DNA from: Eledone cirrhosa
Taxonomy: Eukaryota
Reading direction: 5' to 3'
Length of the DNA: 64,000 nt
Assembly: GCA_964016885.1 (NCBI GenBank)
Contig: OZ024741.1
Coordinates: forward strand, 238,018,001-238,082,000
Below are positions 2,271-57,076 of the stretch, in pieces. The notes below the pieces were generated by a model that saw nothing but the letters and a program-made list of their open reading frames with translations, did no database searches and was not told the origin of the DNA. How positions within the stretch are numbered: the stretch's first letter is position 1; each line of letters begins with the position of its first letter. Made by a program: the position numbers and the translations under genes.

Positions 2271-2620
2271 CCTTATTGTATAATCCATTGTTTCCATAGT
2301 ATGTCACTTCAGGCATGTATGTTGGTGTAGTGTTCCAGTGTAACTACTGTAGTGGTGTGACTGTAAATGTTACTGTAGTGATGTCCCATTGTAACTGCCA
2401 CTGTAGTAATGTGACTAACAGTTGTTAGTGGTATAACTGTAACTGCTGTAGTGGTGTGTCAGTGTAACTGCTGTAGTGGTGTAACAGTGTAACTGCTGTA
2501 GTGGTGTAACAGTGTAACTGCTGTAGTGGTGTAACAGTGTAACTGCTGTAGTGGTGTGACAGTGTAAATGCCACTGAAGTGGTGTGACTGCCATGGTAAT
2601 GTTAATGCATATGTTCATTT
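2271..2620 (-). other. Putative 5' leader exon of a further protocadherin gene whose coding exon lies left of the window
   Basis: Donor AGG|GTAAGA at 2271/2270; same gtgtaactgctgtagtg repeat composition and TC-rich intron start as the leaders at 19180, 33831, 44383 and 55861. 5' end approximate. Confidence 0.6.
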
Positions 2621-4740: not shown

Positions 4741-4826
4741 TTATACTGGTTCTAGGTATGCTTCTTGTTCTGGTTCTTGTTGATGATTCTGTGGTGCTGG
4801 AGGTATGTTTGTGGTGGAATTGATTT
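4741..4826 (-). CDS. Protocadherin G1, last coding exon (EINSTTNIPPAPQNHQQEPEQEAYLEPV*)
   Basis: Acceptor ctaacttttcag|, phase 1 matching the 7643 donor; ends YLEPV*, homologous to YLQPT* in G2-G5. Confidence 0.75.
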
Positions 4827-7642: not shown

Positions 7643-7778
7643 CTGATGTTTCCTCACAACTTTTCCCAGGTTCCTTATTCTTTATGAATCTTGAGTCATT
7701 CATATAGTTGTTACCTTTACTACCACAAGTATGGTTGATATGTTCATAAGAGGATCTCATCTTCTCTCCAGCATATGT
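7643..7778 (-). CDS. Protocadherin G1, second coding exon (TYAGEKMRSSYEHINHTCGSKGNNYMNDSRFIKNKEPGKSCEETS)
   Basis: Acceptor ttttctttaacag|, donor CAG|GTAACT, 136 nt, open frame, phase 0 in / phase 1 out as for the 148-nt exon of G2-G5. Confidence 0.75.
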
Positions 7779-9170: not shown

Positions 9171-11585
9171 CTGTGGAACTGGTGGTAGTCTTCTGGGTGT
9201 TGTTGAGAACATCCACTCATCTGGTAGATGTTCCATCTCTGGATAAAACTGACTTTTAGATTTTATTGTCTGGAGATTTCTGTTAAATATCTCTTCTGCA
9301 TTTCTGGTTATTGCAACAGGATTGTTGGTCTGATACAATAATTGTCTCATCTCAGTCTGAGACAGAAAGTTTGGATTATCTGCTGTTGTAGGTGAGTTAT
9401 TGGTGTGATTAATACATCTGAAAACACACAGTGTTATTGACACTACAATAGCCACAGATATTATTACAGCTGCTGCTACAATGATAATTACCCAAGTCAT
9501 ATTGAGGTTGTTACCAGTCTGTAAGTGGACAGCATTCAACATTGGAGATGTATCATTACTAACAAACAGTGTTAGTATGATAACAGTTGTTCCTGATTGA
9601 ACTGGAGTACCACCATCTTTCACTATAAACTGTAGGTCATATGTTCCTGCATCATTTTGGTAAACTGTCTGAGAGAAAGATAAGACACCAGTATGGGAGT
9701 TGACTGTAAACAGGTTTTTATCATTAGATCTCAGTATTCCATATGTGAGGAAAGCATTGTTTCCAGTGTCTTTGTCAGAGGCTTTCAGAATTGTGATGTC
9801 TTTCTTACTGTGTGGATGGTAGTGGACATCTAGATTGTAAGGGTCATTAATAGGAAAGGTAAAATAGGGAGCATTATCATTTTTATCTAGAATCTCAATA
9901 ACAATATTGGCAGTGTCATTCAGAGAAGGTGTTCCATTATCTTTGACTAAAACCTGGAAGTTATAGATGTCTTTCACTTCCCGATCTATTGATTGTGATG
10001 TAGAAATAAATCCATATTTTGTAAGTTGGAAAGGAATGTTATCATTGTTGTTATCATTGATGATAGAATATGTAAGTTGACCTCCATCTTCAAGATCAGG
10101 GTCTGTAGCATTGATGAAGCCAATAGGGAAGTCAACTTTCTGGTTTTCATAGGTGAGGAATTGGAATGTATCTTTGGTAAAATGTGGCTGTACATCATTG
10201 ACATCAGTTACTTTGACAGAGAAATATTTCTTAGTTTCTAGTTGAGGCGATCCCATATCATGACATACGATAGATACTTTATAGTGGTCGTTTATTTCTC
10301 TATCAAGATGTCCCTTAACAATCATTTTATATTCTTTAGAATCTATTTTGGCAAGTTTAAATTTATCATGTTTTAAGTCACAGCTAACCTCACCATTAGG
10401 TCCAACATCAGTGTCAGTGACCATAACATAAGCTATAAAACTATCTAGTTCACTGTCTTCTGAAATTGCTGTGGAACTTTCTGTTAAAGGAGATACAAAA
10501 TCTATATTTATCACTGGAGCATTATTTTGGGTATTTATAAAATTTATTTGAACCTTTGCAATGGAGCTCAAAGAAGGATTTCCCATATCTCTAGCTTCAA
10601 CAAATAAATTATATATTTGCTCCATATCAAAGCTAAATTTTTCCTTTAGGAAAATCTCTCCAGTAATTGTATTTAATGTGAAATGAGTTTTTGTCTGCTT
10701 TGATGTTTGTTGGTTATATAAATAAAAAATCTTAGCATTTTGTCCAGTATCCTCATCAGTTGTTGATAAACTCAGTATTGGAGATGTTGTTTTCTGTGAA
10801 TTTGTAATTGTGACATTATACATATTCTGGGAAAATACTGGTCTATTATCATTATCATCTGTTAAAATGATAATAATCTTCAAAATGTCATATTTTGGTG
10901 GAGACCCTCTATCCTTTGCTAATAACTCTAATATATGGTTAGCTTTTGTTTCCCTGTCCAACTTCCTTTCTAAAACTATTTCAGGTGTAAATATGTTGCC
11001 ATATATGTTTGATGTTATCAATGAGAAGAATCCACCAATGTTTTTATTAAGTTGGTATCTAATATTTGAATTCTGAACACTAACATCTTCGTCAATGGAA
11101 TTAGGAAGGGACTTTTTAGTTCCTATTCCATCATTTTCACCAAATTCCAGATGGATTTCATCTTTTGGAAACTTGGGCGCATGGTCATTTATGTCTTCTA
11201 TAATTATTTTAACCCTTAAAATCTTCATAAAAGTTTTTCCTTTCCTCGCTGCTACTTTAACAATTCTGGAACATTCCTTGTTATATGTACACAGTGACTC
11301 AGCATCCAGTGTCTGTGTAGTGTATAGTTTTCCTGTGTTGGTGACATTAAATAAGTGAGAACCACTTGACACTGTCCTTTGTAGTTGTGTAAATGTAATG
11401 AGAGTGTGTTGTTGATGTGTAAGAGAGTTTGTTAAGTTAGAATCAACAGCAATGTCTCCTATATAGGTGTGAGGACTGTCTTCTTCATTGACATGATAAG
11501 TAATGTCTATAGACAGTACAAGGGTCATCAGTAAATGTAATAGACACACATGTATTGTAATATATCCAATCATCATCATCATCAT
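9171..11585 (-). CDS. Pcdh: Protocadherin G1, large exon (signal peptide, EC1-EC6, TM, proximal tail); predicted spliced protein 878 aa
   Basis: Cadherin motifs DINDHAP, LDRE, DDNDNRPVF, DVNDVQP, DKNDNAP; EC1 C-X5-C; TM WVIIIVAAAVIISVAIVVSITLCVF; donor CAG|GTTAGT at 9171/9170 (phase 0); acceptor upstream at 11617. Confidence 0.95.
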
Positions 11586-11849
11586 TAGTCTTCACCATTA
11601 TACAAATAAGAAGATTCCTACAAACAGAAAATAGTTTGATAATAATGACTTCTTTATTTGCACACATATATACACATATCACAAACTGTAGTTACATCTA
11701 GATTAAATATATCTTAAATGTTATCAAATGAGCAAGATGTGGTCACCTGACTTGTCTCGTCACATAATGTGACCACCTGTCTAACACATGCAAGCATGAA
11801 AAATAGGCATTAATTGGTGATGATGATTATTATATATATATATAATGTT

Positions 11850-12169
11850 TGAAGGTGCATGGCTTAGTGGTTAGAGCATTGAGCTCACAATTGTAAGGTT
11901 GTGAGTTCGAATCCAAGATTGGGTGGTGCATTGGGTTCTTGAGCAAAACTCTTTATATCATCTTGCTCCAGTTCACTCTCAGTTGTAGAAATGAGTTGTG
12001 TTGTCATGGGTGCCAAGCTATATCGGCCATTGCCTTTACCTTGGACAAAATCGGTGGCATGGAGGGGGGACTGGCATGCATGGGTACACATTGCCTAGGT
12101 TTGTGTTTCAAAGGGGAACTTTCTAGGTGCAAAACTATGGTCATTCATGACTGAAGAAGGCCTATGGCA

Positions 12170-12170
<1 letters not shown>
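11850..12170 (+). mobile_element. tRNA-derived SINE (family B); decayed minus-strand copies near 16140-16260 and 17900-18050
   Basis: A box TGGCTTAGTGG, B box GAGTTCGAATCC, followed by non-tRNA body (cttgagcaaaactcttta) and (TA)n. Confidence 0.75.
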
Positions 12171-12201
<31 letters not shown>

Positions 12202-12834
12202 GCACATATATGAAGTAATACAGAAGACCTGCCTTCTCATGTGCACGGATTGAAGCATACATCTAGTATGCACCACTTTCTCCCTACCTTCCCTTCACCC
12301 TCTTCCATACACCTCCCCCATCCTAACATTCCACCCTTCACTAAATACGTGCCCAGCCTAGATATATATATCTCCAATCCCCATGCACCTCCCCCACCCC
12401 AGACCCCAGTCTACACTGTAAAGTGGTTGTTTTGGTGACATGATAAAATGCACCCAATACACACTGTATATGTGGTTGGAGTTAGGAAGGGCATCCAGCC
12501 ATAGAAACCAAGCCAGAATCAGCTCTGTATGAGCAAGATAGTCATTTGATCTGGCTTGTCTCACAAACCACGCTAGGTTGGAAAATGGACGTTAAATAGT
12601 GATGATGATGATGATGAATATATATATGAAGGCTTGGGCCCTGTGAGAAATTTTGCAAGGTGGAACAAGCAGGTGGAAGAGGAAAGAAGAAAGCTGCTGA
12701 AAATTCAAGCAGGATGGGAGGTCTTTTTCAGGGGTTGAGAGCATTACCATGCCAGATAATCATAAGCTGCTCCTTGGCTGTGTAGCTGTTGGAGCAATAT
12801 ACCAGATACCCACTGCCTCCTTATAGGCCTTGCC

Positions 12835-13008
12835 ATAACCCTTTAACATTTACATTACTCACAAATATCGAATCTATGAGATTTTGATATTATTTATGTT
12901 GAGAACAATACTAAATGTCAGTATGAGCAGCCAGTTATGGCTGGTTTGAACAGAAAGAGGTGAGAAAATTCTGACCGGAATCAGCCGGTTTAAATACTAA
13001 AAGGTTAA
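12835..13008 (+). mobile_element. piggyBac-like MITE (family M1, internally deleted)
   Basis: Ends aaccctttaacattta...taaatactaaaaggttaa; body matches 15631, 16717 and 17402 copies. Confidence 0.7.
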
Positions 13009-13159
13009 GATGCTGGGCCTGGCAGACCTCATGCCATAGAATAAAAAAAAATGTTGAAATACTGTACTCCAGTACTGCAACAACTACTTCAGCACCAATG
13101 TACTGCTGTATAGTCATGCTCTTTATTTATTTTTTGATGGTTTCAAATGTTGCTATAGT

Positions 13160-13550
13160 TACTTTAGTCATGAAGCTTGGGTAATGACCAAAAGAATACA
13201 ATCATGAATACAGGTGGCTGAAATGGAGTTCCTTCAAAGGGTCTTTAAATAGTGTTACTCAATATGGTGTATAGCTTGGAGATCAGGGTGTTACTTTAGA
13301 TAGAGCTGCTACTTCTCTGCATCAAGAGATCACAACTCTAGTACAACAGACATGTGGCTAGAATGCCTAAGAAAAGAATTGCAGGATAAATTTTATGGGC
13401 AAAGTCAACTGGAAGGAGACCCAGAGGCAGATCACAAGCAAGATAGTTGGATAACACCCATAATGTCAGTTGGACACACTTGGGGTTTCAGCTGCTTTCA
13501 ATAAGACTTTCTGGAAGGTGTACCTGAGGACCTTGCACCCACAACCCTTT
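13160..13550 (+). mobile_element. Decayed RTE-clade LINE 3' fragment
   Basis: Translates to HEAWVMTKRIQS*IQVAEMEFLQRV and GRRPRGR, typical RTE ORF C-terminus; runs into the GAA array. Confidence 0.6.
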
Positions 13551-13748
13551 GAAGAAGAAGAAGAAGAAGAAGAAGAAGAAGATGAAGGTGAAGAAGAAGA
13601 AGGTGAAGAAGAAAAAGAAGAAGAAGGTGAAGAAGAAGAAGGTGAAGAAGAAGAAGGTGAAGAAGAAGAAGGTGAAGAAGAAGAAGAAGAAGAAGAAAAA
13701 GAAGAAGAAGAAGAAGAAGAAGAAGAAAAAGAAAAAGAAGAAGAAGAA
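13551..13748. repeat. (GAA)n microsatellite with GGT/AAA interruptions
   Basis: Direct inspection; probably the expanded tail of the preceding LINE. Confidence 0.95.
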
Positions 13749-14062
13749 TTCAGTCACCATCTTCCGTTAGCATCCACAATGTCCCCCTTTCCTATTCATG
13801 TATTTGGATGTGTATATCCAGTTTAGAATAGCTACACTGTCTCCCTGTGTGCCGAAAGAAACATCTAAAAGGGTTAGTGTCATGAAGGGCATCCAGCTGT
13901 AAAACATTGCCTCAAAAAATCCATTCCAACCCATGCCAGCATGGAAAAGATGGAAAACAAAGATGGAGAATATCTCAACATAGGTTCAGGATGAACATGA
14001 AACATATACTCAGAACGTAAAGGGGCGTAACTCTATGCTACAAAGCATGGCGCCCGACCCTC

Positions 14063-15140
14063 TACCTATATAGTACATAGAATAATGTACAAATATCAGG
14101 AAAATGAACAGTGTACGAGTCCTGATATATATGTGTGCGTGTGTATGGAGGGGGGGGGATATCAGGTGTAGTATTGGCAAATTTTAGGAAGCATGGAGGT
14201 TTTAAAGGATGCAGTGTCTCGGCAGCTAACAATTGATGCAGGTAATTTGTTCCATACTTCAGCAACTCTGAGTGTGAAAAAATGTTTCCGAAAATCATGG
14301 GAGCTGTGTTGTTTTCTGACTTTGTAGGCATGTCCACGTGTGTTAGACACATGGAAATCAAAAAGGTGCTCAGGGTTGTTGGCAAGATGGTTAATAATTT
14401 TGTGGGTGTTTACCAAGTCAGTTGCCAGACGTCGGAGCTTCAATGTATCCATGCCCAGGGAAGCAAGGCGTTCAGAGTATGGTAGATGCCTGATGGAGGG
14501 TTCTCGCTTGGTTGCACGTCTCTGAACAGTTTCCAGGAGGTCAATCTTCTGAGCAAGATGGGGGTTCTAGACTGGTGATGCAAATTCTAAGTGTGACTGC
14601 ACCATAGCTATATACAGCTTTAAATAGATAGCTGGAGAGCAGCTGACAAAGGTCTTGCTGAGTGATGCCAAGACACCCTCAGCCTTCTTGACAATTTTAG
14701 AGATGTGCTTCGTCCAACGCAAATTGCTACTGACAGTAATGCCCAGGTCACGTTCACAAGAAGACCTCTTGATATTAGTGTTGTGAAGGGATTATGTGGA
14801 CGCTGGGTTTTTCCTCCCAAAATGCATGGTGATACACTTGTCCACAGCCAGCTTAAGTTGCCAGTCTCTGATCCATTGCTGCATTGTGTCCTGGTCTGAT
14901 TACAGGAAAGATCTATAGTGTTCAGGATCTGTCCTTTTTATCTCAAGATACAGCTTGATGTCATCTGCATATTTCAGTACTGTGGCATTCTTTAAGTTGG
15001 CATCTCATACCGTGAGGAATGCTGTCCTAGAACCGTAACTACCTCATTTTGACTGAGAATGAAGGACTTCAACCAATTAAAAAAATCATCCTTCACACCC
15101 ATTGCAGAGAGTTTTGCCATAAGTCTTTTGTGTGGCACAG
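14063..15140 (-). mobile_element. CR1-clade LINE fragment, 5'-truncated and degenerate
   Basis: SVPHKRLMAKL, KYADDIKLY and TRGHAYK...RKHFFTLRVAEVWNKLP motifs with frameshifts. Confidence 0.85.
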
Positions 15141-15169
15141 AATTAATTATATGATATATCATACTGTGT

Positions 15170-15370
15170 TCTGTGACAATATACAACACCTACATGACAT
15201 TGTTATATTGTGTAGTGTGACAATATACAACACCTACATGACATTGTTATATTGTGTAATGTGACAATATACAACTATATGACATTGTTATATTGTGTAG
15301 TGTGACAGCATACAATAACTATGACATATCATACTGTGTAGTGTGGCAATATACAACTGTTATTGTTATA
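15170..15370. repeat. Tandem minisatellite, ~44-bp unit
   Basis: tgtgacaatatacaacacctacatgacattgttatattgtgtag repeated 4-5 times with decay. Confidence 0.8.
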
Positions 15371-15536
15371 GTGATATTATATAACCTGAAGTACAGAAAG
15401 ACTGTATAGCAAGGAGTATACTGACACAACACACTAACAATAACTAAGAATAGTATGGAATTATAGAAAAGTGACATCATATAACACTTCATATACAGTA
15501 TTGGAGTTTACTGAGTAACAACATTGCTGCATAAGC

Positions 15537-15996
15537 TTAACACTTTCATTACCATATTTATGACATACTCTGTATTTCAATTAATTAATCAAGAATTTTG
15601 AAGGATTTACTAAAATTATTAATTATTTCATTAACCTTTTAGCATTTACATTATTCTATATTTATGATTGTATTTTCATGGTAAACACTTTATTTCATAT
15701 TATTATCTCACATAATATCGAATTTACGAGATTTTGATATTATTTATTTTGAGAATAATACCTTAACATAAGTATGAGCAGCTGGTTATGGCCAGTTTGA
15801 ACAGAAAGAGGTGAGAGAATTCTAGCCAGATGTGGCCGGTTTAAATGCTAAATGGTTAAGATAGTATTTTTAACAAATGGTTCTTATATAAAATCATGTT
15901 GAAAAGTTTTAATTTAAGTAGAAACACATTAAAATATGTGGTTTCATTTCATAGAACCAGAGACAGTTTTGAACACGTTAGTATCAAAATGGTTAA
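15537..15996. mobile_element. Nested piggyBac-like MITEs: family M1 (15631-15859) inside family M2
   Basis: Both bounded by TTAA; outer end ttaacactttcattaccatatt matches the reverse complement of aatatggtaatgaaagggtta at ~54575-54594 and ~32185-32205. Confidence 0.7.
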
Positions 15997-16354
15997 AGTT
16001 TTTCTTGAGTTCCCACATTCATCAGGCTGAAGTTTATCTTGGTTTCATATAGTGTTAAATGACTGAAGGTATCAGGCCCTTTCTTGGATGGGATGCCAGT
16101 CAGTTACTTAGTAAACTCTCAATTGCTGCTAATTTTTTCAACTGAGTAGATTGCAGCAACATGAAATGTACCTTACACAAGGACACAATGTACCACCTGG
16201 TCTGGGTATTGAACCAACAACCTTGTGATTGTTAGCCCCAAATCCTAACCATTAGCCCCACTGAAACACAGTAGATTTAGAAATTCAATTTAGCTCACAC
16301 ATGAGTCTACAAGGATAGTTCTACAAACCTGGAAATGACCGAAAAATTTTCCTC

Positions 16355-16700
16355 ATAATAATAATAATGAAAATATTGTGTACAGTGCTCAGGTGCACTA
16401 CAACTCATCAAAAGTGTATGCATAGTACATAGGGTAATGTACAAACGTCAGGAAAATGAACAGAACATGAGTCATGATATACACATGGAAGGGGTACATC
16501 AGGTGTAGTTTTGGGGAACTTCGGGAAGCATGAGGGTTTTAAAGGATGCAGTGTCTCGGCAGCTAACAACTGATGCAGGCAGTTTGTTCCATGCTTCAGC
16601 AACTCTAAGCGTGAAAAAATGTTTCTGAAAGTCATGGGAGCTGTGCTGTTTTCTGACTTTGTAGGCATGTCCACGTGTGTTAGACACATGGAGATCAAAC
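16355..16700 (-). mobile_element. CR1-clade LINE 3' end
   Basis: TRGHAYKVRKQHSSHDFQKHFFTLRVAEAWNKLP plus 3' UTR and (ATT)n tail. Confidence 0.85.
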
Positions 16701-16716
16701 TCTAGTAGCTAGCAAC

Positions 16717-16928
16717 TTAACCCTTTAACATTTACAATACTCTGTATTTACCATTGTATTTTTATGGTAAACACTTTATCTCACATAAAATCAAATCTAC
16801 GAGATTTTGATATTATTTTGAGAACAATACCTTAACATAAATATGAGCAGTCGGTTGTGGCCAATTTGAACAGAAAGAGGTGAAAGAAGTTTGGCCTGAT
16901 ATGGCCAGTTTAAATGCTAAAGGGTTAA
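16717..16928 (+). mobile_element. piggyBac-like MITE (family M1)
   Basis: TTAA CCCTTTAACATTTA...TAAATGCTAAAGGG TTAA. Confidence 0.85.
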
Positions 16929-16964
16929 AATCAGGGCACATTATTTTATGTAGTCTGTAGGGGC

Positions 16965-17372
16965 GGGGCGGTGGATTGGCAGTATTGGTAGAGGGGCGGA
17001 CGCCATATTTTGCAGCATAGAGTTACGGCCCTTTATGATCTGAGTTGAAATCCTGCCGAGGTTAACTTTGCCTTTCATCCTTACAGGGTCAATAAAATAA
17101 AGTACCAGTCACGCACTGTGGTCCATTTAATCGACTTTCCCCTCCCTCAAAATTACTGACCTTGTGCCTAGATAGAAACAATTATTTTATGTGGATTGGC
17201 AGTATCGGTAGACGGTCGGACGCCATGCTTTGACATATAGAGTTATGGCTCTTGCCATTCTGAGTTCAAATCAAAGGTTAACTTTGCCTTTCATCCTTAC
17301 GGGGTCGATAAAATAAAGTACCAGTAATGTACTGGGTAATTGCTGGCCTTGTGTCAAAAGTAGACACAATTA
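16965..17372 (+). mobile_element. Two tandem tRNA-derived SINEs (family A)
   Basis: Two head-to-tail copies starting gtggattggcagta and ending agaaacaatta / agacacaatta. Confidence 0.85.
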
Positions 17373-17401
17373 TTTTATGTAGTCTGAATTACACTGTTTG
17401 A

Positions 17402-17618
17402 TTAACCCTTTAGCATTTAAACTGAATTCGCTCACCTCTTTCTGTTCAAACCAGCCAAAAACTGGCTGCTCATATTTATGTTAAAACATTCTTCTCAAAA
17501 TAAATAATATCAAAATCTCGTAGATTCAATATTTAGTGAGATAATTATGTGAAATAAAGTGTTTACTATGAAAATGTAATAGTATATATATAGAGTAATG
17601 TAAATGCTAAAGGGTTAA
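17402..17618 (-). mobile_element. piggyBac-like MITE (family M1), opposite orientation
   Basis: TTAA CCCTTTAGCATTTA...TAAATGCTAAAGGG TTAA; body is the reverse complement of 16717-16928. Confidence 0.85.
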
Positions 17619-19179
17619 ACAAAAGGGTGCTCATAAGTGGAGTGTTTTTCTCCATAGGTCTGCACACTCATTGCTGTCCTGGGGTAATACTACAACCCCA
17701 GCTGCTCACTGATATAGCTGATGGATCCTGCATTGGTTTGATCAACCAGACATCTGACACTTAATAGTGAAACAGTGGCTGAGTATTTCACAGATATGTA
17801 CACCTTTAATGGAATTCTATGATAGAACCAGTGTGATGCAGTGTTTACAAACCTGGACCTTTGAATTATAAGTACAATCCATCTAATGGGCTTTCAAACA
17901 GTTTCTGTCTACCCAGTTTCATTCACTCACAATGCTTGGGTCAACCTGAGGCTATGGTGAAAGACACTTGCTCAAGATAGCACATAGTGGGATTGAACTA
18001 GGACCTCATGAGTGCAAAGTGAATGTTTTAACCATTCAGTTATGCTTGCATCTCCCTCCATAGCTAATACACAAAACACACCATAATATTCCAATAGATC
18101 AATCATTATTGATTAACATTTAATAAAAAAAAAAATGGCTATAAAAAAGACATTTTAAAACTATTAATTAATAAGGCTAATTAAATATCTAAAATGTAGT
18201 TAATATGTGTATGTTGCTGCGTGTGTGTTGTATAGTGAATGTGTGAGTGGTATGCAGTTAATGTGTGTGCATTGCATAGTTAATATGTGAGTCTATAGCT
18301 AAATGTGTGTGTGGTGTGTAGTTCTGTGATGTATAGTTGTTGCTGTTATGGAAATATATCTTTCTTTTTGAGGTAATTATATACTACTATAACTACTGTA
18401 GTTGTTGTTATTGTTTAGCCGCAGGTCAACCCTGATCAAGCATACACATAATGAAAGGTGATCATCGCTGTCTATTTTTTTATGCATTACATATCTAGGA
18501 CTGCATTATGCAAGGCCTCCTCCTTCTCCTAAGATGGTAAAGTGTAATTTGAAGGAGATTTGGTTGTTGTTCCTGTTCCTTTCATGCTGGGCAACCACAT
18601 TTAGGTTCCTTCATTTATTTTGCAACAAATACAGTAGTTGTTGTTTAGCCCTGGGCAAACCTTGATTGAGTAGATATAAGATTAAAGCTGTTCTAGTTAT
18701 GATTGTCCATATCTATATTTTATGTAGTATATCTAGGAGTACATTATGCAATGTTTCCTTCATTTTCTAAGATGATAAAGTGTAATTTGAAAGAAAACAG
18801 GCTGCTATTTCTAGTAAGTTGAGAGACCATGTAGAGGGTCCTTCATTGGCACATTCTAGCAGATGTTAATGGTGGAGATGATGGCTAGAACTCCCTATTC
18901 TTCATTGTCCCATTCTCTCTCCACTCCCATACACATATATATAGTATACATACACACACACATACACACATATAGACACAACATGGTAGCTGTTATGTTA
19001 GCTGTTGTTTAATGGTGGAAGAGCTGGATAGATTTTTCCTCCAGTCTTAGTATGTATACATATATATACATATAGACAACATGGCAGTCATCTTAGATAT
19101 GATCTTATCTTTTAGTGAAACCCATATAACATATATATATTATAATGAATATAAAAAGGTAATAAAGAGAGAGACTTAC

Positions 19180-20010
19180 CAGCATTATTTAATCCTTCAC
19201 TGGAGTTGAGTGTGATGGATGATGTATATCCTGCTGTAGTGTTCCACTGTAACTGCTGCTACTGTTATGGTGGTGTTATAGAGTAACTGCTACGGTAGCA
19301 GTGTTCCAGTGTGACTGTTATTGTTGTAGTGTTCAACTATAACTGCTGCTGTGGTAGAGTTTCTGTTTAACTGCTGTTGTAGTGGTATGGTAATGTAAAT
19401 GTTGCTGTTGTAGTTATAGTAGTGTGACAGTGTAAATTGTAGTTGTAGTAGTAGTATGACAGTATAAGTGTTGCTGTAGTAGTGTGGCACTGTAAGTGTT
19501 GCTGTAGTAGTTTGACAGTGTAAGTGTTAGTGTAAGTAGTGGCAATGTAAAGTTGCTGCAGTGGTGACAGTGTAAGTGTTGGTGTAGTAGTATGATAGTG
19601 TAAGTATTGCTGTTGTAGTGTGACAGTGTAAGTATTACTGTTGTAGTGTGACAGTGTAAATGTTGGTATAGTATTGTGACAGTGTAAATTTTGCTGTAGT
19701 AGTATGACAGTGTAAGTATTGGTATAGTAGTGAGACAGTGTAAGTGATGCTGTAGTAGTGTGACAGTGTAAGTGTTGGTGTAGTAGTGTGACAGTGTAAG
19801 CGTTGCTGTAGTAGTATGATAGTGTAAGTGTTGGTGTAGTTAATGTGATAGTGTAAGTGTTGCTGTAGTAGTATGGCAGTGTAAGTGTTGGTGTAGTTAA
19901 TGTGACAGTGTAAGTGTTGGTATAATAGTGTGGGAGTGTAAGTGTTGGTGTAGTAGTGTGACAGTGTAAGTGTTGGTGTAGTTAATGTGATGTTTCTGAA
20001 TTGCTGGCAG
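19180..20010 (-). other. Putative 5' leader exon of G1, expanded by a ~28-bp minisatellite
   Basis: Donor CTG|GTAAGTCTC at 19180/19179; 3' part (taatccttcactg...ggatgatgtatatcctgctgtagtgttcca) homologous to the leaders at 33831, 44383 and 55861; unit gtgtaagtgttggtgtagtagtgtgaca. 5' end approximate. Confidence 0.7.
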
Positions 20011-20247
20011 TCAGTCAGACAGTCAGACCATCTCCCCCCCCCCACACACACACGGTATTGATATATTTGTGAATGTTGTGTAGTTTTTATGAATGGCTGA
20101 TGACACAGAGTTAGGCCTAACAGTCTGAATAGTAGTGCATGTGTGTCTGTGTGTTTGCATGTGTGTGTGAGAGAGGGAGAGCTAAGGTGTGAGAGAGAGA
20201 GAGAGGTGCTTTACTTCATTATTTGCTTCTTCTAACTGTGTATGTGT

Positions 20248-20284
<37 letters not shown>

Positions 20285-22244
20285 CACATTTGGAGTTAAT
20301 TGCTCTTTTTATATGCCAATCTTAATTTAATTTAATTTAATTTAAAATTCACAAGTTGTCAGAAGCTAGAGGAAAAACAAAAAAAGAAACGTGTGTGGTG
20401 TTAATGTCATATTGCTTCTATATGACTATTAATTTCAGTTATAATTTAACCCTCGGAAGTCTCCCCATATTGGGGAATTTTCTTTTGTTACATCTTTTGT
20501 TTTTATTTTATACTCATTTTTACATGCAGAAACCCACATTGTACTATCCTGTGCTGTCCTTACTTAATGTATTTTTTATGTAAACCCTTTGTGGTCAATA
20601 AAGAAAACATTACTATTATCCTTATCAATATCCTTACTATTATTATTATTGTTATTATCATTATTACTATCATCATCATCATCATCATCACTATTATTAT
20701 TGTTGTAATCATAAAAACGCCCTATTGTTTTTTTAAAATATAATTTTCTTATTATTATCATTAATTTTGTTGCTGAAAGCAAATTAATATAGATATATAT
20801 ATATAGTACCTGTAATATACTGTGGGCTTATTTTATTTGATTATAGTCATTCCTCCACACCTCCAAAGTCATCTAAAATACTACTACTACATTGCTATTG
20901 ATATATTACACTGCTGCAGCATCTGTGCTGATATGTCACCGGCTGTAGTAGTATTAGTAGTAGTAGTAGTAGTATTATTAGTAGTGTTAGTAGTAGTAAT
21001 AGTAGTGATGGTATTGTTTGCAAGGGACTTGTGGTACTGTAGGTGGTGATCTCTGCAATGGCATGGGGTTTATTGTTGTTGTTGCTGTGGTGGTGTTTGT
21101 AGTTGTTAAGGTGATAGTGGTGGTGTTTGTAAATTATATTGAAACAAATTGATGAAAATTTAGAATTGTAAATCCCTGTGATAAAGATGTAAGCCATGTC
21201 AGATGGTGATGATATCAACATTGTTGTTAGTAAACTAACTTGATGTGGACTTGTCAGTGATCAAGTAGACTGGGTTTAACAGTGTCAGTAGAAAAGATGG
21301 TTGACAGTATCAGCATTGTAAAATCTTATAGATTATTATTATTATCATTATTATTATTGCAGAGTAATCATTTTTTTTGAGTGAGTAGGAACTGATGAAT
21401 TGGTCAACTGTCAAAGAAATAACTTATCAATATCAGCAAAGATATTGAGTAGTTGTTGATTAACAATGTTGTGGTTGTTGCCATTGAACAGAAAATAAAT
21501 CTTTTTGCTCTCCACTTTTTGGCATCATTGACAGTGGATAGTGATAGCAGTAGAGCCAATATTAAGCCACAGGAATATATTTGTCTTCATCTGTGTATGT
21601 GTATTTCCAGAAGGTGGATGATATGTGGAAAAGGAATTTTTTTACAAGCCAAAACCATAGATTAAAATGTGACTGGAGTAAGTTATGAAGCTGGTTGAAT
21701 GTAGTAGGTTTCATGTGGTCTTTTTGAGAGATCCTTTTGGAGATACACTTACATTGAAACTGTTCAACTTTGCACTGTAAATAGAATATATATATATATA
21801 TATATATGAGAAACAACAAAGGAAATATTTTGTTACTATCTGCACCCACAAACTCCACACATGAGGAAATAAATCTAAACTATTTCACATGAAACATAAA
21901 AATCCACAAAAAATCATATATTGATTTCTAATTTAAGCACAAAGCCAGCAAATTTGGGGGAAGGGCAAAGTTGATTAAATCAACCCCAGTATTTGACTGG
22001 TACTTTATTTTATTGATCCTTTGATCCTAGAAAGATGAAAGGCAGAGTTAGCTTTGGTAGGTTTTGAACTCAGAATGTAAAGCACCAGAACACACAGCAT
22101 GGTATTTTGCTGGCACTACCAATTCTACCAATCCTTCACAAAAATTTATATATTGCTAGGGACGAGACAACCTCTCAAGTACTGGATCCATATTAAAATG
22201 CACCCAGTACACTCAGTAAAAGGAGTTGACAAGTGAACATAGAC

Positions 22245-22410
22245 AATCATCATCATCATCATCATCAACGTTTAACGTCCGTGTTCCACGCTTGCATGGG
22301 TTTGGACGGGGGTTTTCCCACTTGAGGCAAGAGTGATTGTCTTGCTCGCATAGGACTGTCTGGCAGGTTTTCTACAGTTGGATGCCCTTCCTAACACCAA
22401 CCACATTTAC
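22245..22410 (-). mobile_element. RTE LINE 3' terminal fragment with (GAT)n tail
   Basis: Reverse complement nearly identical to 31605-31761. Confidence 0.85.
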
Positions 22411-22914
22411 AAGGAAGAAATGACTGTAGTTTTACTGTGTAGCAGTTCTTCCTAAGAGAACTTGCAATCTTAAGAATTTTATAAAAATATTGTTTAATAT
22501 ATTCAAAATTGGATTACATAACACACCATACAGGTGATAAGTTAATTATGTATCTATATATGTGGCACAGAAGGAGAGTAAATAAATGATTGAAAGGAGA
22601 GAGAGAGAGAGTGTAAAAATTAACCTTACAATCACAGTTGTATAGAAGATAAATATCTTTGGTGTATATTACTTGTTGATACAGCTTGGGCAATAAATAC
22701 ACAATAACAATTATGGAATACATCACACAACAACTTTATGAATTATGTATTAAAAATAAACATTTTAGGCTTGGGGTAACAGTATATATTTGAGTTTTTT
22801 AAATACATGACTATATGATATATTCTCTATTTAATCTATATGCAACTGGCATGGTGAATATTTTCACAAATATAATGATTATAACAATTTTATACCATAT
22901 TATAGTTCACTTAC

Positions 22915-23096
22915 TTTTGGTAGATTTGGTTGTAATATTCTCAGTGTTGTTGAAAATTTCCAGTCATTGATTAACTGTTTCATCTCTGGATAATATGGAC
23001 TTTTAGGGTTTATTGACTAAATATTTCTGTTAAATATATCTTCTGATTTGTGGTTATTGCAACAGGATTGTTGGTTTGATACAGTATTTGTTTCAT
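22915..23096 (-). pseudogene. Protocadherin pseudogene remnant (3' end of a large exon)
   Basis: Reads MKQILYQTNNPVAIT / EDIFNRNI*SINPKSPYYPEMKQLINDWKFSTTLR with a frameshift and a stop, then donor AAA|GTAAGT; ectodomain and TM are missing. Confidence 0.85.
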
Positions 23097-23099
23097 TAA

Positions 23100-23220
23100 T
23101 CATGTGTATCATGGATAAAGAACAAAGCTATCAGCCTTTGAATATTGAGAGAAATACAGAAAATCTCCCTTGTCCAATTGGAAATGACTGCAATGTTGAC
23201 TGTGTTAAACAAACACAAAA
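23100..23220 (-). promoter_or_regulatory. Diverged copy of the conserved upstream (promoter-like) block
   Basis: aaagctatcagcc...tgaatattga...ccaattggaaatgactgcaatgttg aligns to 34160-34280. Confidence 0.55.
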
Positions 23221-23705
23221 TAATTCTATGCTATTAACTTTGTATCATTTTAATTTAAGATGAAAAAACTCAACTTCAGAGAAGACAGTCAAATTTTGAT
23301 TATTTAAGAAAAACATTGTAGAGAAAAACTGAAAACATTTTATATATTGTAGGATGGCTCAGATTACTTTACCTATGCTTAAGAAATTGTGTACTAAAAT
23401 TGAGAGTAAAATAACTATTTTGTGATTCAGAACTATGATAATAAAGAGTAAGGTATGTATTGTGTCAGATATAAATTAAGGGTCACAATAGAAGCCACAG
23501 AAAATAAGCCCTATATGTTTAATGTTTCAAACAAAAATGTTATTATAGAATAGGCTATTTTTAATATCATAAAATAGGAATGAAAATATAAGTCAGTGTA
23601 ATGCAACTGTGTGATGATTAAAAGAAATATAGAGTCGATATTTTTATATCACATAACATCTTTGATATAAGAAAGAATCATTTAACAATAGTGATGGGAC
23701 ATCTA

Positions 23706-24553: not shown

Positions 24554-26953
24554 CTGTGGAACTGGTGGGAGTCTTCTGGGTGTTGTTGAGAATTTCCACT
24601 CATCTGGTAGTTGTTCCATCTCTGGATAAAACTGACTTTTAGATTTTATTGTCTGAAGATTTCTGTTAAATATTTCTTCTGCATTTCTAGTTATTGCAAC
24701 AGGGTTGTTAGTCTGATACAGTAATTGTCTCATCTCAGTTGGAGACAGAAAGTTTGGATTATCTGCTGTTGTAGGTGAGTTATTGGTGTGATTAATACAT
24801 CTGAAAACACACAGTGTTATTGACACTACAATAGCCACAGATATTATTACAGCTGCTGCTACAATGATAATTACCCAAGTCATATTGAGGTTGTTACCAG
24901 TCTGTAAGTGGACAGCATTCAACATTGGAGATGTATCATTACTAACAAACAGTGTTAGTATGATAACAGTTGTTGCTGATTGAACTGGAGTACCACCATC
25001 TTTCACTATAAACTGTAGGTCATATGTTCCTGCATCATTTTGGTAAACTACCCGAGAGAAAGATAAGACACCAGTGTGGGAGTTGACTGTAAACAGGTTT
25101 TTATCATTAGATCTCAGTATTCCATATGTGAGGAAAGCATTGTTTCCAGTGTCTTTGTCAGAGGCTTTCAGAATTGTGATGTCTTTCTTACTGTGTGGAT
25201 GGTAGTGGACATCTAGATTGTAAGGGTCATTAATAGGAAAGGTAAAATAGGGAGCATTATCATTTTTATCTAGAATCTCAATAACAATATTGGCAGTGTC
25301 ATTCAGAGAAGGTGTTCCATTATCTTTGACTAAAACCTGGAATTTATAGATGTCTTTCATTTCCCGATCTATTGATTGTGATGTAGAAATAAATCCATAT
25401 TTTGTAAGTTGGAAAGGAATGTTATCATTGTTGTTATCATTGATGATAGAATATGTAAGTTGACCTCCATCTTCAAGATCAGGGTCTGTAGCATTGATGA
25501 AGCCAATAGGGAAGTCAACTTTCTGGTTTTCATAAGTGAGGAATTGGAATGTATCTTTGGTAAAATGTGGCTGTACATCATTGACATCAGTTACTTTGAC
25601 AGAGAAATATTTCTTAGTTTCTAGTTGAGGTGATCCCATGTCATGACATACAATAGATACTTTATAGTGGTCCTTTATTTCTCTATCAAGATGTCCCTTA
25701 ACAATCATTTTATATTCTTTAGAATCTATTTTGACAAGTTTAAATTTATCATGTTTTAAATCACAGCTAACCTCACCATTAGGTCCAACATCAGTGTCAG
25801 TGACCATAACATAAGCTATAAAACTACCAACTTTACTTGCTTCTAAAACTGCTGTGGAACTTTCTGTTAAAGGTGATACAAAATCTATGTCTATCATTGG
25901 AGCATTATTCTGGTTATTGATTATATGAATTTGAACTGCGGTTACTGAACTCAAAGGAGGTTTTCCTCCATCTCGTGCTTCAATAAATAGTTTATAAAAC
26001 TCAATCTTACTAAAGGGAAAATTATCATGTAAAAATATCTCTCCAGTTTTCTTATCTAATACAAAATATTTCTGGGCATTTCGAGATGTTTTATGGTTGA
26101 AATGATAAGAAATCTTTCCATTGTCTCCAGAATCTAGATCTGTGGCTTTTAAAGTTAGAATTGGTAAATGTTTTTGATGTGAATTATTTATAGATATGTT
26201 GTAGACTTTCTGTGAAAACACAGGTGTGTTATCATTAACATCTGTCAAAGCTATGAGTACTTTGAGGGTAGCTGTTTTGGGAGGGTTCCCTCCATCTTTA
26301 GCTTCAAGTGTCAACATATATGAGTCTTTTATTTCCCTGTCTAATTTCTCTTCTAAAGTTAATTCAGGTATGAAGACTCCATCATGTCGCCTTGTGACAG
26401 ACAGGGCAAATGGTTCTCTCTTACTTTTCTTAATCATATATGTAATTTGAGAATTTCTCATTGAAATATCTTGATCAATGGCATTTGGAAGAGAGATTTT
26501 ACTTCCTTTAAAATCTTTTTCAGAAAATTCAATTTCAAATTCATTGTCTGGAAATTCTGGTGGATGGTCATTGATGTCTTCTATAATTATTTTTATCTTC
26601 AATATCTTCAGAAATGTTTCTGCTTTCCTCACTGCTACTTTAACAATTCTGGAACATTCCTTGTTATATATACACAGTGACTCAGCATCCAGTGTCTGTG
26701 TAGTGTATAGTTTTCCTGTGTTGGTGACATTAAATAAGTGAGAACCACTTGACACTGTCCTTTGTAGTTGTGTAAATGTAATGTGAGTGTGTTGTTGATG
26801 TGTAAGAGAGTGTGTTAAGTTAGAATCAACAGCAATGTCTCCTATATAGGTGTGAGGACTGTCTTCTTCATTGACATGATATGTAATGTCTATAGACAGT
26901 ACAAGGTTTATCAGTAAATGTAGTAGACAGAGTAGACCAATATATGTTGTCAT
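24554..26953 (-). CDS. Pcdh: Protocadherin G2, large exon; predicted spliced protein 875 aa
   Basis: Six cadherin repeats, signal peptide, TM; donor CAG|GTAAAT at 24554/24553; acceptor at 26991. Confidence 0.95.
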
Positions 26954-29399: not shown

Positions 29400-30000
29400 C
29401 CTCTTAAAGCAAGATTTCAATAGTATGAGTTCCCGGTCAGAACCACCCTATGTCATCTTTGTCCTATGTCTTCCTTGGGATCTCTCTTCCACAGATTTCA
29501 CTAACTTCAAGCACTTGGCACTTCTTCATACAACTGTCATTCTCCATGTATGTACCATTGTAACTGCCTCTCTTGTACACTACATCTGATTACTCTCATA
29601 TTCAATTTTCTCTCGGCTACATGTGTTCTGTCATTCACACACACTAATATTACACACCCAGTAGAGTATATATGTTTCATTTCTTTCTAGCCATCACAAA
29701 TCTGCATTTAAGCACCATGTCCCACTACCATGAAGCATGGCAGTTCAAATAAAAGCCTTATACAATGTATAAAAATGAAAAGCACGTTATTGCCAGCAGA
29801 GGTAATAACTCCTGATTTTATTCCCCTCTGTAGTCACTTAGGCTAAGCTTTCAGTACACCCCACCCCACTGTTAATGAGGTTACCTAAACAGAAGCAGCT
29901 ATCAACTACTTCAAGAGAAGCTTCGGGATGTCTGAGGGAGCTCATTTCATAAAGAATGAGTAATGTTATTGTTGACTTCTGTACATCTATCACATACAGC
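29400..30000 (-). mobile_element. Old RTE LINE relic (also ~41390-41990, ~53230-53850, 63930 onward)
   Basis: Minus strand resembles EVVDSF.YLG and GR.RPRKTWD motifs of the young RTE at 30017. Confidence 0.5.
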
Positions 30001-30016
30001 AATATATTCAGCACAA

Positions 30017-33830: not shown

Positions 33831-34100
33831 CTTCATTGTTTAATCCTTATCCTTCACTGTAGTAGCATGTAATGGATGATGTGTATCCTGCTGTAGTGTT
33901 CCAGTATGATGGCTGCTACTGCTGTAGTTGTGTTATAGTGTAACTGCTGCTACTGTAGTGTCCCATAATAATTGCTTCACTGCTGTAATGTTTCAGTGTA
34001 ACTGCTGCTGCTGCTGCTATGGTGTTCCTGTGTAACTGCTGATATTGCTGTGTCAATGTGTAACTGCTGGTGTGACTGTAGCTATATGTAGTGGGAGGAG
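33831..34100 (-). other. Putative 5' leader exon of G2
   Basis: Consensus donor AAG|GTAAGT at 33831/33830; near-identical copies at 44383 and 55861. 5' end approximate. Confidence 0.75.
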
Positions 34101-34280
34101 GGATGTTAACTAGATGGTGTTGTGTGAGTTATATCCCTATATCTTCCACACACACAAAAGTGTGTATTATGAACAAAGAAAAAAGCTATCAGCCTCATTT
34201 TGAATATTGAAAGAAATATATAAAATCTTCCTTAACCAATAGGAAATTACTGCAATGTTGTCTGTGTAACAGAAACACAG
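34090..34280 (-). promoter_or_regulatory. Putative G2 promoter (CTCF-like ACTAGATGGTGTTG at 34109-34122, CCAAT at ~34236)
   Basis: Directly upstream of the leader exon; repeated upstream of the G3 and G4 leaders and partly at the pseudogene. Confidence 0.5.
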
Positions 34281-44382: not shown

Positions 44383-44650
44383 CTTCATTGTTTAATCCTT
44401 ATCCTTCACTGTAGTAGCATGTAATGGATGATGTGTATCCTGCTGTAGTGTTCCAGTATGATGGCTGCTACTGCTGTAGTTGTGTTATAGTGTAACTGCT
44501 GCTACTGTAGTGTCCCATAATAATTGCTTCACTGCTGTACTGTTTCAGTGTAACTGCTGCTGCTGCTGCTATGGTGTTCCTGTGTAACTGCTGATATTGC
44601 TGTGTCCCTGTGTAACTGCTGGTGTGACTGTAGCTATATGTAGTGGGAGG
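44383..44650 (-). other. Putative 5' leader exon of G3 (promoter block upstream, ~44645-44830)
   Basis: AAG|GTAAGT donor; near-identical to 33831. Confidence 0.75.
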
Positions 44651-45561
44651 AGGGATGTTAACTAGATGGTGTTGTGTGAGTTATATCCCTATATCTTCCA
44701 CACACACAAAAGTGTGTATTATGAACAAAGAAAAAAGCTATCAGCCTCATTTTGAATATTGAAAGAAATATATAAAATCTTCCTTAACCAATAGGAAATT
44801 ACTGCAATGTTGTCTGTGTAACAGAAACACAGGAAATAATAGAATCCATGTCAAACAGAAATAGTTTGATAGTTTATGTTATAATACTAATTCAAGTTAA
44901 ATTTAATGACAATAATCCAGAATTCTTTACTTTGCAGCTAATTATTTTAAAATTATAAACTATTTTTTATTATATTTTAATATTAAAATTAATTATTATA
45001 ATTAATTACATATTTTAAGATATAGCTGTTTATATTTCATGTATTATCTCTTTTTAACAGAAATGCCAAACTCCTAGCTTTTGATACAATTTACTCTAAC
45101 TTGTAGTTAAATATTAACGTTGCTCTCCTATTTCTAAATGTTATAATGCAGTAAAGGAATTATATTATATTTCTTGAAATTTTTCTATATAGTCTTATAT
45201 CTAAGTTAAACAATATTGTGTAAAACATCCATTAAATGATTCACAATCTAAATAGTTTCATGATCAAAATAGGAAAATTATAAATATATTTAAAAAAATG
45301 AATGTTAAAATGGAAATTAAAAGATTTAATAAAAATAAACAAAACATATTTTAAACTATAATAATATTATAGTGTACTATATTTATATTATTTAAGTGTC
45401 TGAGGTGTAAATTAGGGGACATAGTATATGACACTGCAGGTAAGACATTTTGTGTAATGATGGGGAAGTAGTTATAGGTTTGATATTCTCATATCACTAT
45501 AAAGTATTCTATAACGTTTGGTGTGTGAGAGAATCATTTAACAATAGTGATGGGACATCTA

Positions 45562-55860: not shown

Positions 55861-56125
55861 CTTCATTGTTTAATCCTTATCCTTCACTGTAGTAGCATGT
55901 AATGGATGATGTGTATCCTGCTGTAGTGTTCCAGTATGATGGCTGCTACTGCTGTAGTTGTGTTATAGTGTAACTGCTGCTACTGTAGTGTCCCATAATA
56001 ATTGCTTCACTGCTGTAGTGTTTCAGTGTAACTGCTGCTGCTGCTATGGTGTTCCTGTGTAACTGCTGATATTGCTGTGTCCCTGTGTAACTGCTGGTGT
56101 GACAGTAGCTATATGTAGTGGGAGG
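55861..56125 (-). other. Putative 5' leader exon of G4 (promoter block upstream, ~56120-56310)
   Basis: AAG|GTAAGT donor; near-identical to 33831. Confidence 0.75.
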
Positions 56126-57076
56126 AGGGATGTTAACTAGATGGTGTTGTGTGAGTTATATCCCTATATCTTCCACACACACAAAAGTGTGTATTATGAA
56201 CAAAGAAAAAAGCTATCAGCCTCATTTTGAATATTGAAAGAAATATATAAAATCTTCCTTAACCAATAGGAAATTACTGCAATGTTGTCTGTGTAACAGA
56301 AACACAGGAAATAATAGAATCCATGTCAAACAGAAATAGTTTGATAGTTTATGTTATAATACTAATTCAAGTTAAATTTAATGACAATAATCCAGAATTC
56401 TTTACTTTGCAGCTAATTATTTAAAAATTATAAAACTATTTTTTATTATATTTTAATGTTAAAATTAATTATTATAATTAATTACATATTTTAAAATATA
56501 ACTGCTTATAATTTATGTATTATCTCTTTTTAACAGAAATGCCAAACTCCTAGCATTTGATATATAATGTAGCAAAGGAAAATGGGAAGAAATATGTTTG
56601 AATGAAGTAATTTTGAGGAAATATATTTAGGAATAAAATTTACTCTAACTTGTAGTTAAATATTAACATTGCTCTCCTATTTCTAACTTTCTAAATGTAA
56701 TAATGCAGTAAAGGAATTATATTATTTTTCTTGAAATTTTTCTATAGTCTTATATCTAAAGGAAACAATATTGTGTAAAACATCCATTAAATGATTCACA
56801 ATCTAAATAGTTTCGTGATCAAAATAGAAAAAAATTATAAATATATTTTAAAAAAATAATATTAAAACAGAAATTAAAATAGATAATAAAAAATAAGCAA
56901 AACATTTTAAACTATAATAATATTATAGTGTACTATATTTAAGTGTCTGAGATGTAAATTAGGGGTCATAGTATATGACACTACAGATAAGACATTTTGT
57001 GTAATTATGAGAAAGTGGTTATAAGTTTGATATTTTTATATATAAGAATCATTTAACAACTGTGATGGGATATCTA

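What the first reader, a model, noticed from the sequence alone, without database searches (positions are those of the whole stretch)
11583..19186. G1: spliced uORF whose stop overlaps the protocadherin start (TAATG)
Seen: joining leader donor 19180 to acceptor 11617 gives ATG CTG|GAA TCT TCT TAT TTG TAT AAT GGT GAA GAC TAA (MLESSYLYNGED*). The last A of TAA is the A of the main ATG. The peptide is unrelated to the G2-G5 uORF, but the ATG position (6 nt before the donor, A at -3), the relative frame (-1) and the stop/start overlap are the same. The main frame has stops upstream, so this is not an N-terminal extension. This is the independent replicate that makes the pattern hard to attribute to recent duplication.
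Basis: partly seen in the sequence, partly recalled or inferred. Interest (0 to 1): 0.75.

Follow-up and report, generated by a model that had tools for sequence, protein, structure and literature searches.

The report
Inherited uORF in octopod protocadherin leaders
An octopod protocadherin gene has a predicted spliced leader whose 12-codon upstream reading frame would stop on the gene's first start codon; its start codon is inherited from the same ancestral leader as its neighbours', so it is likely an ordinary translation-dampening uORF and not an independently evolved stop-start switch.

Summary
The arithmetic is right: joining 19180 to 11617 gives a 12-codon uORF ending in TAATG at 11587-11583 in an intact 878-aa octopod protocadherin. 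The leader looks like a real exon: five paralogous copies end at a GTAAG donor, and an Octopus sinensis RefSeq model crosses the homologous junction of a G2-type gene. No reads could be laid on G1's own junction. "Independent replicate" is only partly right. G1 is an old paralog, but its leader is homologous to those of G2-G4 (83% over the last 60 nt), so ATG position and A at -3 are inherited. A fifth leader copy has lost that ATG. Only the 32-nt exon-2 piece is a fresh draw, and chance gives the overlap about 18% of the time, because ATGA or a run of five ATGs is itself a stop in the -1 frame. Best reading (0.6): an ordinary conserved uORF that lowers translation.

The parts
19180..19990 (-). 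Predicted non-coding leader exon L1 of G1 (5' end unknown; 19417-19990 is a 28-nt tandem repeat)
   Evidence: Homologous to leaders at 33831, 44383, 55861 and 2271; homology fades about 12-30 nt into the intron; tandem repeat
19183..19185 (-). uATG, 6 nt before the donor, A at -3
11618..19179 (-). Predicted intron 1 (7562 nt), GTAAGT ... TTTGTAG
   Evidence: rough consensus scores 6.7 bits (donor) and 2.0 bits (acceptor); not tested with reads
11585..11617 (-). Exon-2 part of the uORF, ending in TAA at 11587-11585
11571..11585 (-). Run of five ATG codons at the protocadherin start; in the uORF frame TAA is followed by five TGA
   Evidence: orthologues have one or two Met here
11485..11598 (-). 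Second upstream ATG (A at -3, G at +4) opening a 37-codon out-of-frame ORF that overlaps the coding sequence
9171..11617 (-). G1 exon 2: signal peptide, cadherin repeats, transmembrane part
   Evidence: Pfam PF08266 and PF00028 above their cut-offs
7643..7778 (-). G1 exon 3 (cytoplasmic)
   Evidence: tblastn with the Argonauta orthologue P0001; boundaries
4741..4826 (-). G1 exon 4 coding part, to the stop
   Evidence: 878-aa product
33831..34130 (-). Paralogous leader L2 (G2), uATG at 33836; two more upstream ATGs 38 and 136 nt before the donor
44383..44680 (-). Paralogous leader L3 (G3), uATG at 44388
55861..56160 (-). Paralogous leader L4 (G4), uATG at 55866
2271..2600 (-). Fifth leader copy L0 (its gene would lie left of the window): ATA in place of the -6 ATG; ATGs at -18 and -27 (phase 0) and -46 (phase 1) are open to the donor

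Best explanation
G1 likely carries an ordinary uORF, inherited with a predicted spliced leader exon shared by this protocadherin subfamily, that would divert scanning ribosomes and lower protocadherin synthesis, the stop-on-start overlap being likely a by-product. Shown: the sequence elements, the homology of the leaders, and that any -1-frame ORF reaching the ATG run must stop there. Inferred: the leader is spliced to 11617; ribosomes start at the uATG (A at -3); after 12 codons they stop with 0-11 nt to the five ATGs, which is little room to reload initiator tRNA, so most leave the mRNA; the protein is made mainly by ribosomes that leak past the uATG and the ATG at 11598 and start at the second or a later ATG of the run (A at -3; the first has C at -3). 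The peptide has no role.
For: Leader homology with the uATG in register. Given a phase-0 uATG and the real coding start, random 25-50-nt UTRs give the overlap in 17.6% (G1) to 18.4% of 20,000 draws; at the real length, dinucleotide shuffles give it in 36% (G1) and 19-44% (G2-G5) of 5,000. 48 of 118 Met-starting homologues have a second residue whose codon always begins with A, that is a built-in ATGA. Identity between L1 and L2 is spread evenly over the last 120 nt (20-25 of 30 per block), with no peak at the ATG. L0 has lost the ATG. A conserved start with an unconserved peptide is the usual pattern for regulatory uORFs (PMC7889888, passages); about half of animal mRNAs have uORFs (PMC10123092, start of abstract); reinitiation after short uORFs needs spacing (PMC5972666, PMC10275272, passages). 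For the junction: O. sinensis model XP_029645448.2 (P0128) ends ...SEGLNNAEISPAKV, which is the leader in its phase-1 frame running straight into the start of exon 2 at the same donor and acceptor as modelled for G2-G4.
Against: All five acceptor-to-ATG lengths are 2 mod 3, including one 3-nt indel between G2/G4 and G3/G5. The G1 piece stayed free of stops although unalignable (64% of shuffles stop earlier). L0 has two other ATGs in the same phase (chance of one or more 0.34, of two or more 0.08). The leader end is more alike between G1 and G2 (about 80%) than four-fold sites in the unconverted EC2-EC3 region (14 of 28), which points to constraint or conversion. L1 holds 1 ATG in 840 nt against 5.9 expected (P = 0.01, weakened by tandem repeats). 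Together these leave a best-case chance of a few percent before correction for selection by eye. No RNA, ribosome or reporter data were seen.
Confidence: 0.6

Rival explanations
1. Selected termination-reinitiation: ribosomes translate the uORF, stop on the start codon and restart there, so output depends on the right leader-to-exon-2 splice; in G1 this also carries them past the strong out-of-frame ATG at 11598.
For: Frame kept in 5 of 5 genes and across a split older than Argonauta-Octopus; no earlier stop in an unalignable piece; phase-0 ATGs in L0 where the -6 ATG is lost; the oORF at 11598 would otherwise be costly; a cellular precedent exists in SLAMF1 (PMC5972666 section 16).
Against: Only one semi-independent draw, P about 0.12-0.18. 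No TGGGA core in the last 300 nt of L1 plus the exon-2 UTR; G2-G4 have one 170-173 nt upstream, further than the roughly 45-nt viral region described. The modelled junction region folds no better than shuffles (z -1.55, -0.57, -0.95). The two overlaps differ in form.
Confidence: 0.15
2. The uATG is a near-neutral passenger: rarely used, or absent from most transcripts because of other start sites, and kept only because the leader end is conserved or converted as a block.
For: ATG lost in L0; gene conversion is extensive here (four-fold sites 38 of 39 identical in residues 1-100 and 114 of 116 in residues 400-699 between G1 and G2); G2-G4 leaders carry two more upstream ATGs that G1 lacks.
Against: A at -3 in 4 of 4 copies; ATG scarcity elsewhere in L1; O. 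sinensis keeps Asn-Ala before the donor, compatible with a retained ATG, though the codon cannot be read from the protein.
Confidence: 0.15
3. G1's real transcript uses another junction (another acceptor, an extra exon or another first exon), so this uORF does not exist as drawn.
For: G1's acceptor scores lowest of the five (2.0 against 4.0-5.9 bits); an AG at 11776 scores 3.6 and would end the uORF after about 22 codons, well before the start; four cassette-like candidates lie in the intron. The O. sinensis model covers a G2-type acceptor, not G1's, and is a read-through chimera that may not rest on reads.
Against: 11617 is the best of the 13 AGs between 11870 and 11560 except 11776; the four candidates all overlap interspersed repeats seen; 19180 is the second-best of the donors printed for 11500-23700 (633 GT scored, one short stretch not printed); orthologous proteins start at the same place.
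Confidence: 0.1

Closest known systems
Canonical regulatory uORFs of animal mRNAs (PMC7889888)
   Same: Short AUG-initiated ORF in the leader; start codon kept, peptide not; likely repression of the main ORF
   Different: Split by an intron, repeated across a tandem gene family, and ending with no gap before the main start
Human SLAMF1 long isoform, last uORF (PMC5972666 section 16)
   Same: Short cellular uORF whose stop overlaps the main start by 1 nt, in a cell-surface receptor mRNA
   Different: SLAMF1 has 29 codons, UGAUG and a TURBS-like sequence; G1 has 12 codons, UAAUG, no TGGGA nearby and five tandem ATGs
TURBS-dependent termination-reinitiation (caliciviruses, influenza B segment 7; PMC10275272, PMC5972666)
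   Same: UAAUG or AUGA stop-start overlap
   Different: Those follow a long ORF and need an upstream 18S-pairing element; neither is present in G1
Coleoid clustered protocadherins (PMC9068888)
   Same: Head-to-tail, multi-exon, whole-gene duplicates with their own 3' exons and signs of gene conversion
   Different: The passages read describe no non-coding leader exon or uORF

Membership tests
Coleoid clustered protocadherin | N-terminal Cadherin_2 domain and cadherin repeats in one large exon, with a transmembrane part | tested here: met
   PF08266 E 5e-10, PF00028 five stretches E 1e-67; 80% identity to Argonauta P0001; transmembrane part read from the translation
Coleoid clustered protocadherin | Tandem whole-gene copies on one strand, each with its own 3' exons | tested here: met
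   Five genes on the minus strand, each with exons 3 and 4
Canonical regulatory uORF | AUG upstream of the main start in the mature mRNA | tested here: inconclusive
   Depends on a predicted splice; supported for a G2-type gene by one annotation model; no reads on G1
Canonical regulatory uORF | Start codon kept while the peptide is not | tested here: inconclusive
   ATG in register in L1-L4 and lost in L0; no more conserved than its neighbours; peptides differ
Canonical regulatory uORF | Is translated and changes main-ORF output | not testable with these tools
   Needs ribosome profiling or reporters
TURBS-type termination-reinitiation | Stop and start overlap or lie within about 20 nt | tested here: met
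   TAATG at 11587-11583 in the modelled mRNA
TURBS-type termination-reinitiation | UGGGA core shortly upstream of the stop-start | tested here: not met
   None in G1 within the last 300 leader nt plus exon-2 UTR; 170-173 nt upstream in G2-G4
TURBS-type termination-reinitiation | Structured RNA element upstream | tested here: inconclusive
   Folding z -1.55 for G1 against 200 mononucleotide shuffles; no Rfam family at gathering score in 19100-20400
TURBS-type termination-reinitiation | Long upstream ORF | tested here: not met
   12 codons

The most novel reading that the evidence does not exclude
Octopod clustered protocadherins are made through a splice-built uORF whose stop sits on the main start: translation is coupled by termination-reinitiation, kept since before the Argonauta-Octopus split with free peptide sequence, and in G1 it lets ribosomes skip a strong decoy ATG. 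It would be a family-wide translational gate on neuronal identity molecules.
Probability: 0.15. Interest if true: 0.7.

Novelty: new member of a known kind. Interest (0 to 1): 0.3.

Why it matters
How cephalopods control their hundreds of protocadherins is open; a shared leader exon with a uORF is a concrete handle for reporter tests and was not found in print in three searches. As an ordinary uORF it is a modest annotation gain. If stop-start coupling held across the family, it would be one of very few cellular cases and a control layer unlike vertebrate promoter choice.

Tried and rejected
No whole genome is held, so other paralogues could not be counted. No read-level result on the junction was obtained. 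Metagenome scan: 263 pattern matches, 0 confirmed. Other proteins that translate the leader: 0 of 41 candidates among shorter proteins, 0 among 1.84 billion representatives, 1 of 152 stored proteins. Earlier findings: none in three look-ups. N-terminal extension from the leader: rejected; main-frame stops in G1-G4, none of the 13 nearby AGs gives an open fusion, and the full-length close homologues start at the exon-2 Met. Leader as a coding 3' exon of the upstream gene: rejected; all three frames carry stops in L2-L4 and the upstream genes end at their own exon 4. The GTAAGT 123-166 nt before the G3-G5 acceptors as an extra exon: absent in G2 and G1, not pursued. A-to-I editing as a switch: considered; single edits of TAA leave a stop (reasoning only), no data.
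Full report
Setting. The window holds five protocadherin genes head to tail on the minus strand. G1's large exon carries Cadherin_2 and five Cadherin matches. Its best homologues are Argonauta hians and Octopus proteins named protocadherin beta-15-like (359 hits, 120 listed). With exons at 11617-9171, 7778-7643 and 4826-4741 it gives an intact 878-residue protein whose tail matches the Argonauta orthologue. This fits the whole-gene duplication described for coleoids (PMC9068888, passages).

The observation. Three corrections. Only three sister leaders are in the window (33831, 44383, 55861), and they are identical over their last 150 nt, so they count once. Their uORFs end in ATGA, not TAATG. 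And G1 has a second upstream ATG at 11598 in an optimal context, opening a 37-codon ORF across the signal peptide.

Is the leader a real exon? Probably. Five copies of a repeat-rich block each end at a GTAAG donor; four lie 5.8-7.6 kb upstream of a protocadherin exon, and the gene of the fifth would be outside the window. Similarity between L1 and L2 is about 80% over the last 120 nt and fades within about 30 nt of the donor. One of 152 stored homologous proteins, the O. sinensis model XP_029645448.2, happens to translate the next gene's leader and ends ...SEGLNNAEISPAKV. In the window L1 ends SEGLNNA in that frame, L2 ends GLNNE, and G2's exon 2 begins ISTAKV then a stop. So an outside annotation uses the same donor and acceptor for a G2-type gene in another species. 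The model is a read-through chimera and I could not see whether reads support this intron; the last seven residues serve no protein homology, which suggests they do (inference). G1's own acceptor is the weakest of the five on a rough consensus matrix with recalled frequencies (2.0 against 4.0-5.9 bits). Four cassette-like candidates in the intron overlap interspersed repeats. No reads were laid on the junction.

Is G1 independent? In a tree of the first 350 residues of the five genes and 26 of the 120 listed homologues, G1 groups with Argonauta P0001 and O. bimaculoides P0098 (100/100), apart from G2-G5 and their Octopus and Argonauta relatives (100/100). But the leader is homologous: 83% over the last 60 nt with the ATG in register. 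At that identity three bases stay the same about 57% of the time (0.83 cubed). The ATG's place and its -3 A are therefore inherited. Conversion is also active here: four-fold sites are identical at 38 of 39 positions in residues 1-100 but at 14 of 28 in residues 100-299 (G1 against G2). Only the 32-nt exon-2 UTR is unalignable (34-109 of 500 shuffles score as high) and can count as a fresh draw.

How unlikely is that draw? With a phase-0 uATG and the real coding start, random 25-50-nt pieces of the window's introns give the overlap in 17.6% of 20,000 draws for G1; 48.6% stop earlier, 18.1% run past and 15.7% fuse in frame. At the real length 36% of 5,000 shuffles give it. The reason is simple: ATG followed by A is TGA in the -1 frame, 48 of 118 Met-starting homologues have that built in, and in G1 the TAA is followed by five TGA codons from the ATG run. 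Orthologues begin MTGYI or MMTGYI, so most of the run is a recent triplet expansion; whether the TA before it is ancestral cannot be read from proteins. The fifth leader, L0, has ATA at the homologous place, against a fixed ATG position; it has two other ATGs in the same phase, which shuffles give with probability 0.34 (one or more) or 0.08 (two or more). One 3-nt indel separates G2/G4 from G3/G5 in a GAA/TGA triplet context. In sum the pattern is suggestive, at a few percent in the best case and uncorrected for having been picked by eye, and it is not established.

Mechanism. Most likely (0.6) the uORF is an ordinary attenuator. Ribosomes that start at the uATG stop 0-11 nt from the five ATGs. 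Reviews state that reinitiation after short uORFs needs distance to reload initiator tRNA, and that a 1-nt overlap likely precludes it (PMC5972666, passages and all of section 16; PMC10275272, passages). The next in-frame ATG (11528) would cut most of the signal peptide. Protein would come from ribosomes that leak past two upstream ATGs. A kept start with a free peptide is the norm for uORFs (PMC7889888, passages). Translation and repression are inferred, not shown. The rival worth testing (0.15) is true termination-reinitiation, attractive in G1 because translating the uORF would carry the ribosome over the ATG at 11598. Against it, there is no TGGGA core near the overlap, no unusual folding and no Rfam match in the leader. 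A neutral passenger (0.15) and a different junction (0.1) remain.

Comparison and novelty. The architecture is known in a cellular mRNA (SLAMF1; also GAD and the SART1 retrotransposon, as reviewed in PMC5972666). G1 fails two defining tests of the TURBS kind and is not filed there. Searches for protocadherin + upstream open reading + cephalopod (0 papers), protocadherin + uORF + ribosome profiling (6 papers, 4 listed, none on this by title or abstract start) and uORF + octopus + squid + translation (2 papers, 1 listed, off topic) found no description of these leaders. PMC6339937 (passages) mentions none. I read no supplements and did not see Albertin 2015 or Wang and Ragsdale 2017, where gene models with such exons may be shown. 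PMC11790910 (passages) gives the reporter design that would settle the matter.

Verdict. Observation partly confirmed, interpretation partly supported. A predicted new member of a known kind; interest 0.3; the coupling reading has probability 0.15 and would deserve 0.7.

Noticed in passing
window 2271-2600 (-): A fifth copy of the leader exon with a GTAAGA donor; the homologous ATG is ATA, with new ATGs at -18, -27 and -46. It implies another protocadherin left of the window.
   Followed up: partly
window 9171-11573 against 24554-26953 and 35974-38373: Mosaic homogenisation between old paralogues: residues 1-100 and 400-800 are 94-99% identical in DNA, residues 100-300 only 61-68%. It resembles the variable EC2-EC3 of vertebrate clustered protocadherins (recalled).
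   Followed up: partly
window 22927-23096 (-): A broken remnant of the end of a protocadherin large exon (stop and frame break) directly after G2's 3' flank: likely a nearly deleted gene between G2 and G1.
   Followed up: partly
window 11485-11598 (-) and 50020 (-): Out-of-frame ATGs just before the starts of G1 (strong context) and G4 (weaker) open 37- and 30-codon ORFs over the signal peptide; an O. sinensis model (P0015) begins in this frame.
   Followed up: partly
window 29960-31381 (+): 473-codon reverse transcriptase ORF with a PHD-like finger (PF00078 E 4e-26) inside G2 intron 1; likely a LINE fragment.
   Followed up: no
P0127, P0128, P0142 (O. sinensis models): Three RefSeq models run from the last exon of one protocadherin through its stop into the next gene; an annotation artefact or real read-through splicing.
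   Followed up: no
window 19417-19990 (-): The G1 leader is expanded by about 20 copies of a 28-nt unit, so its 5' UTR may be near 0.8 kb against about 0.3 kb in G2-G4.
   Followed up: no
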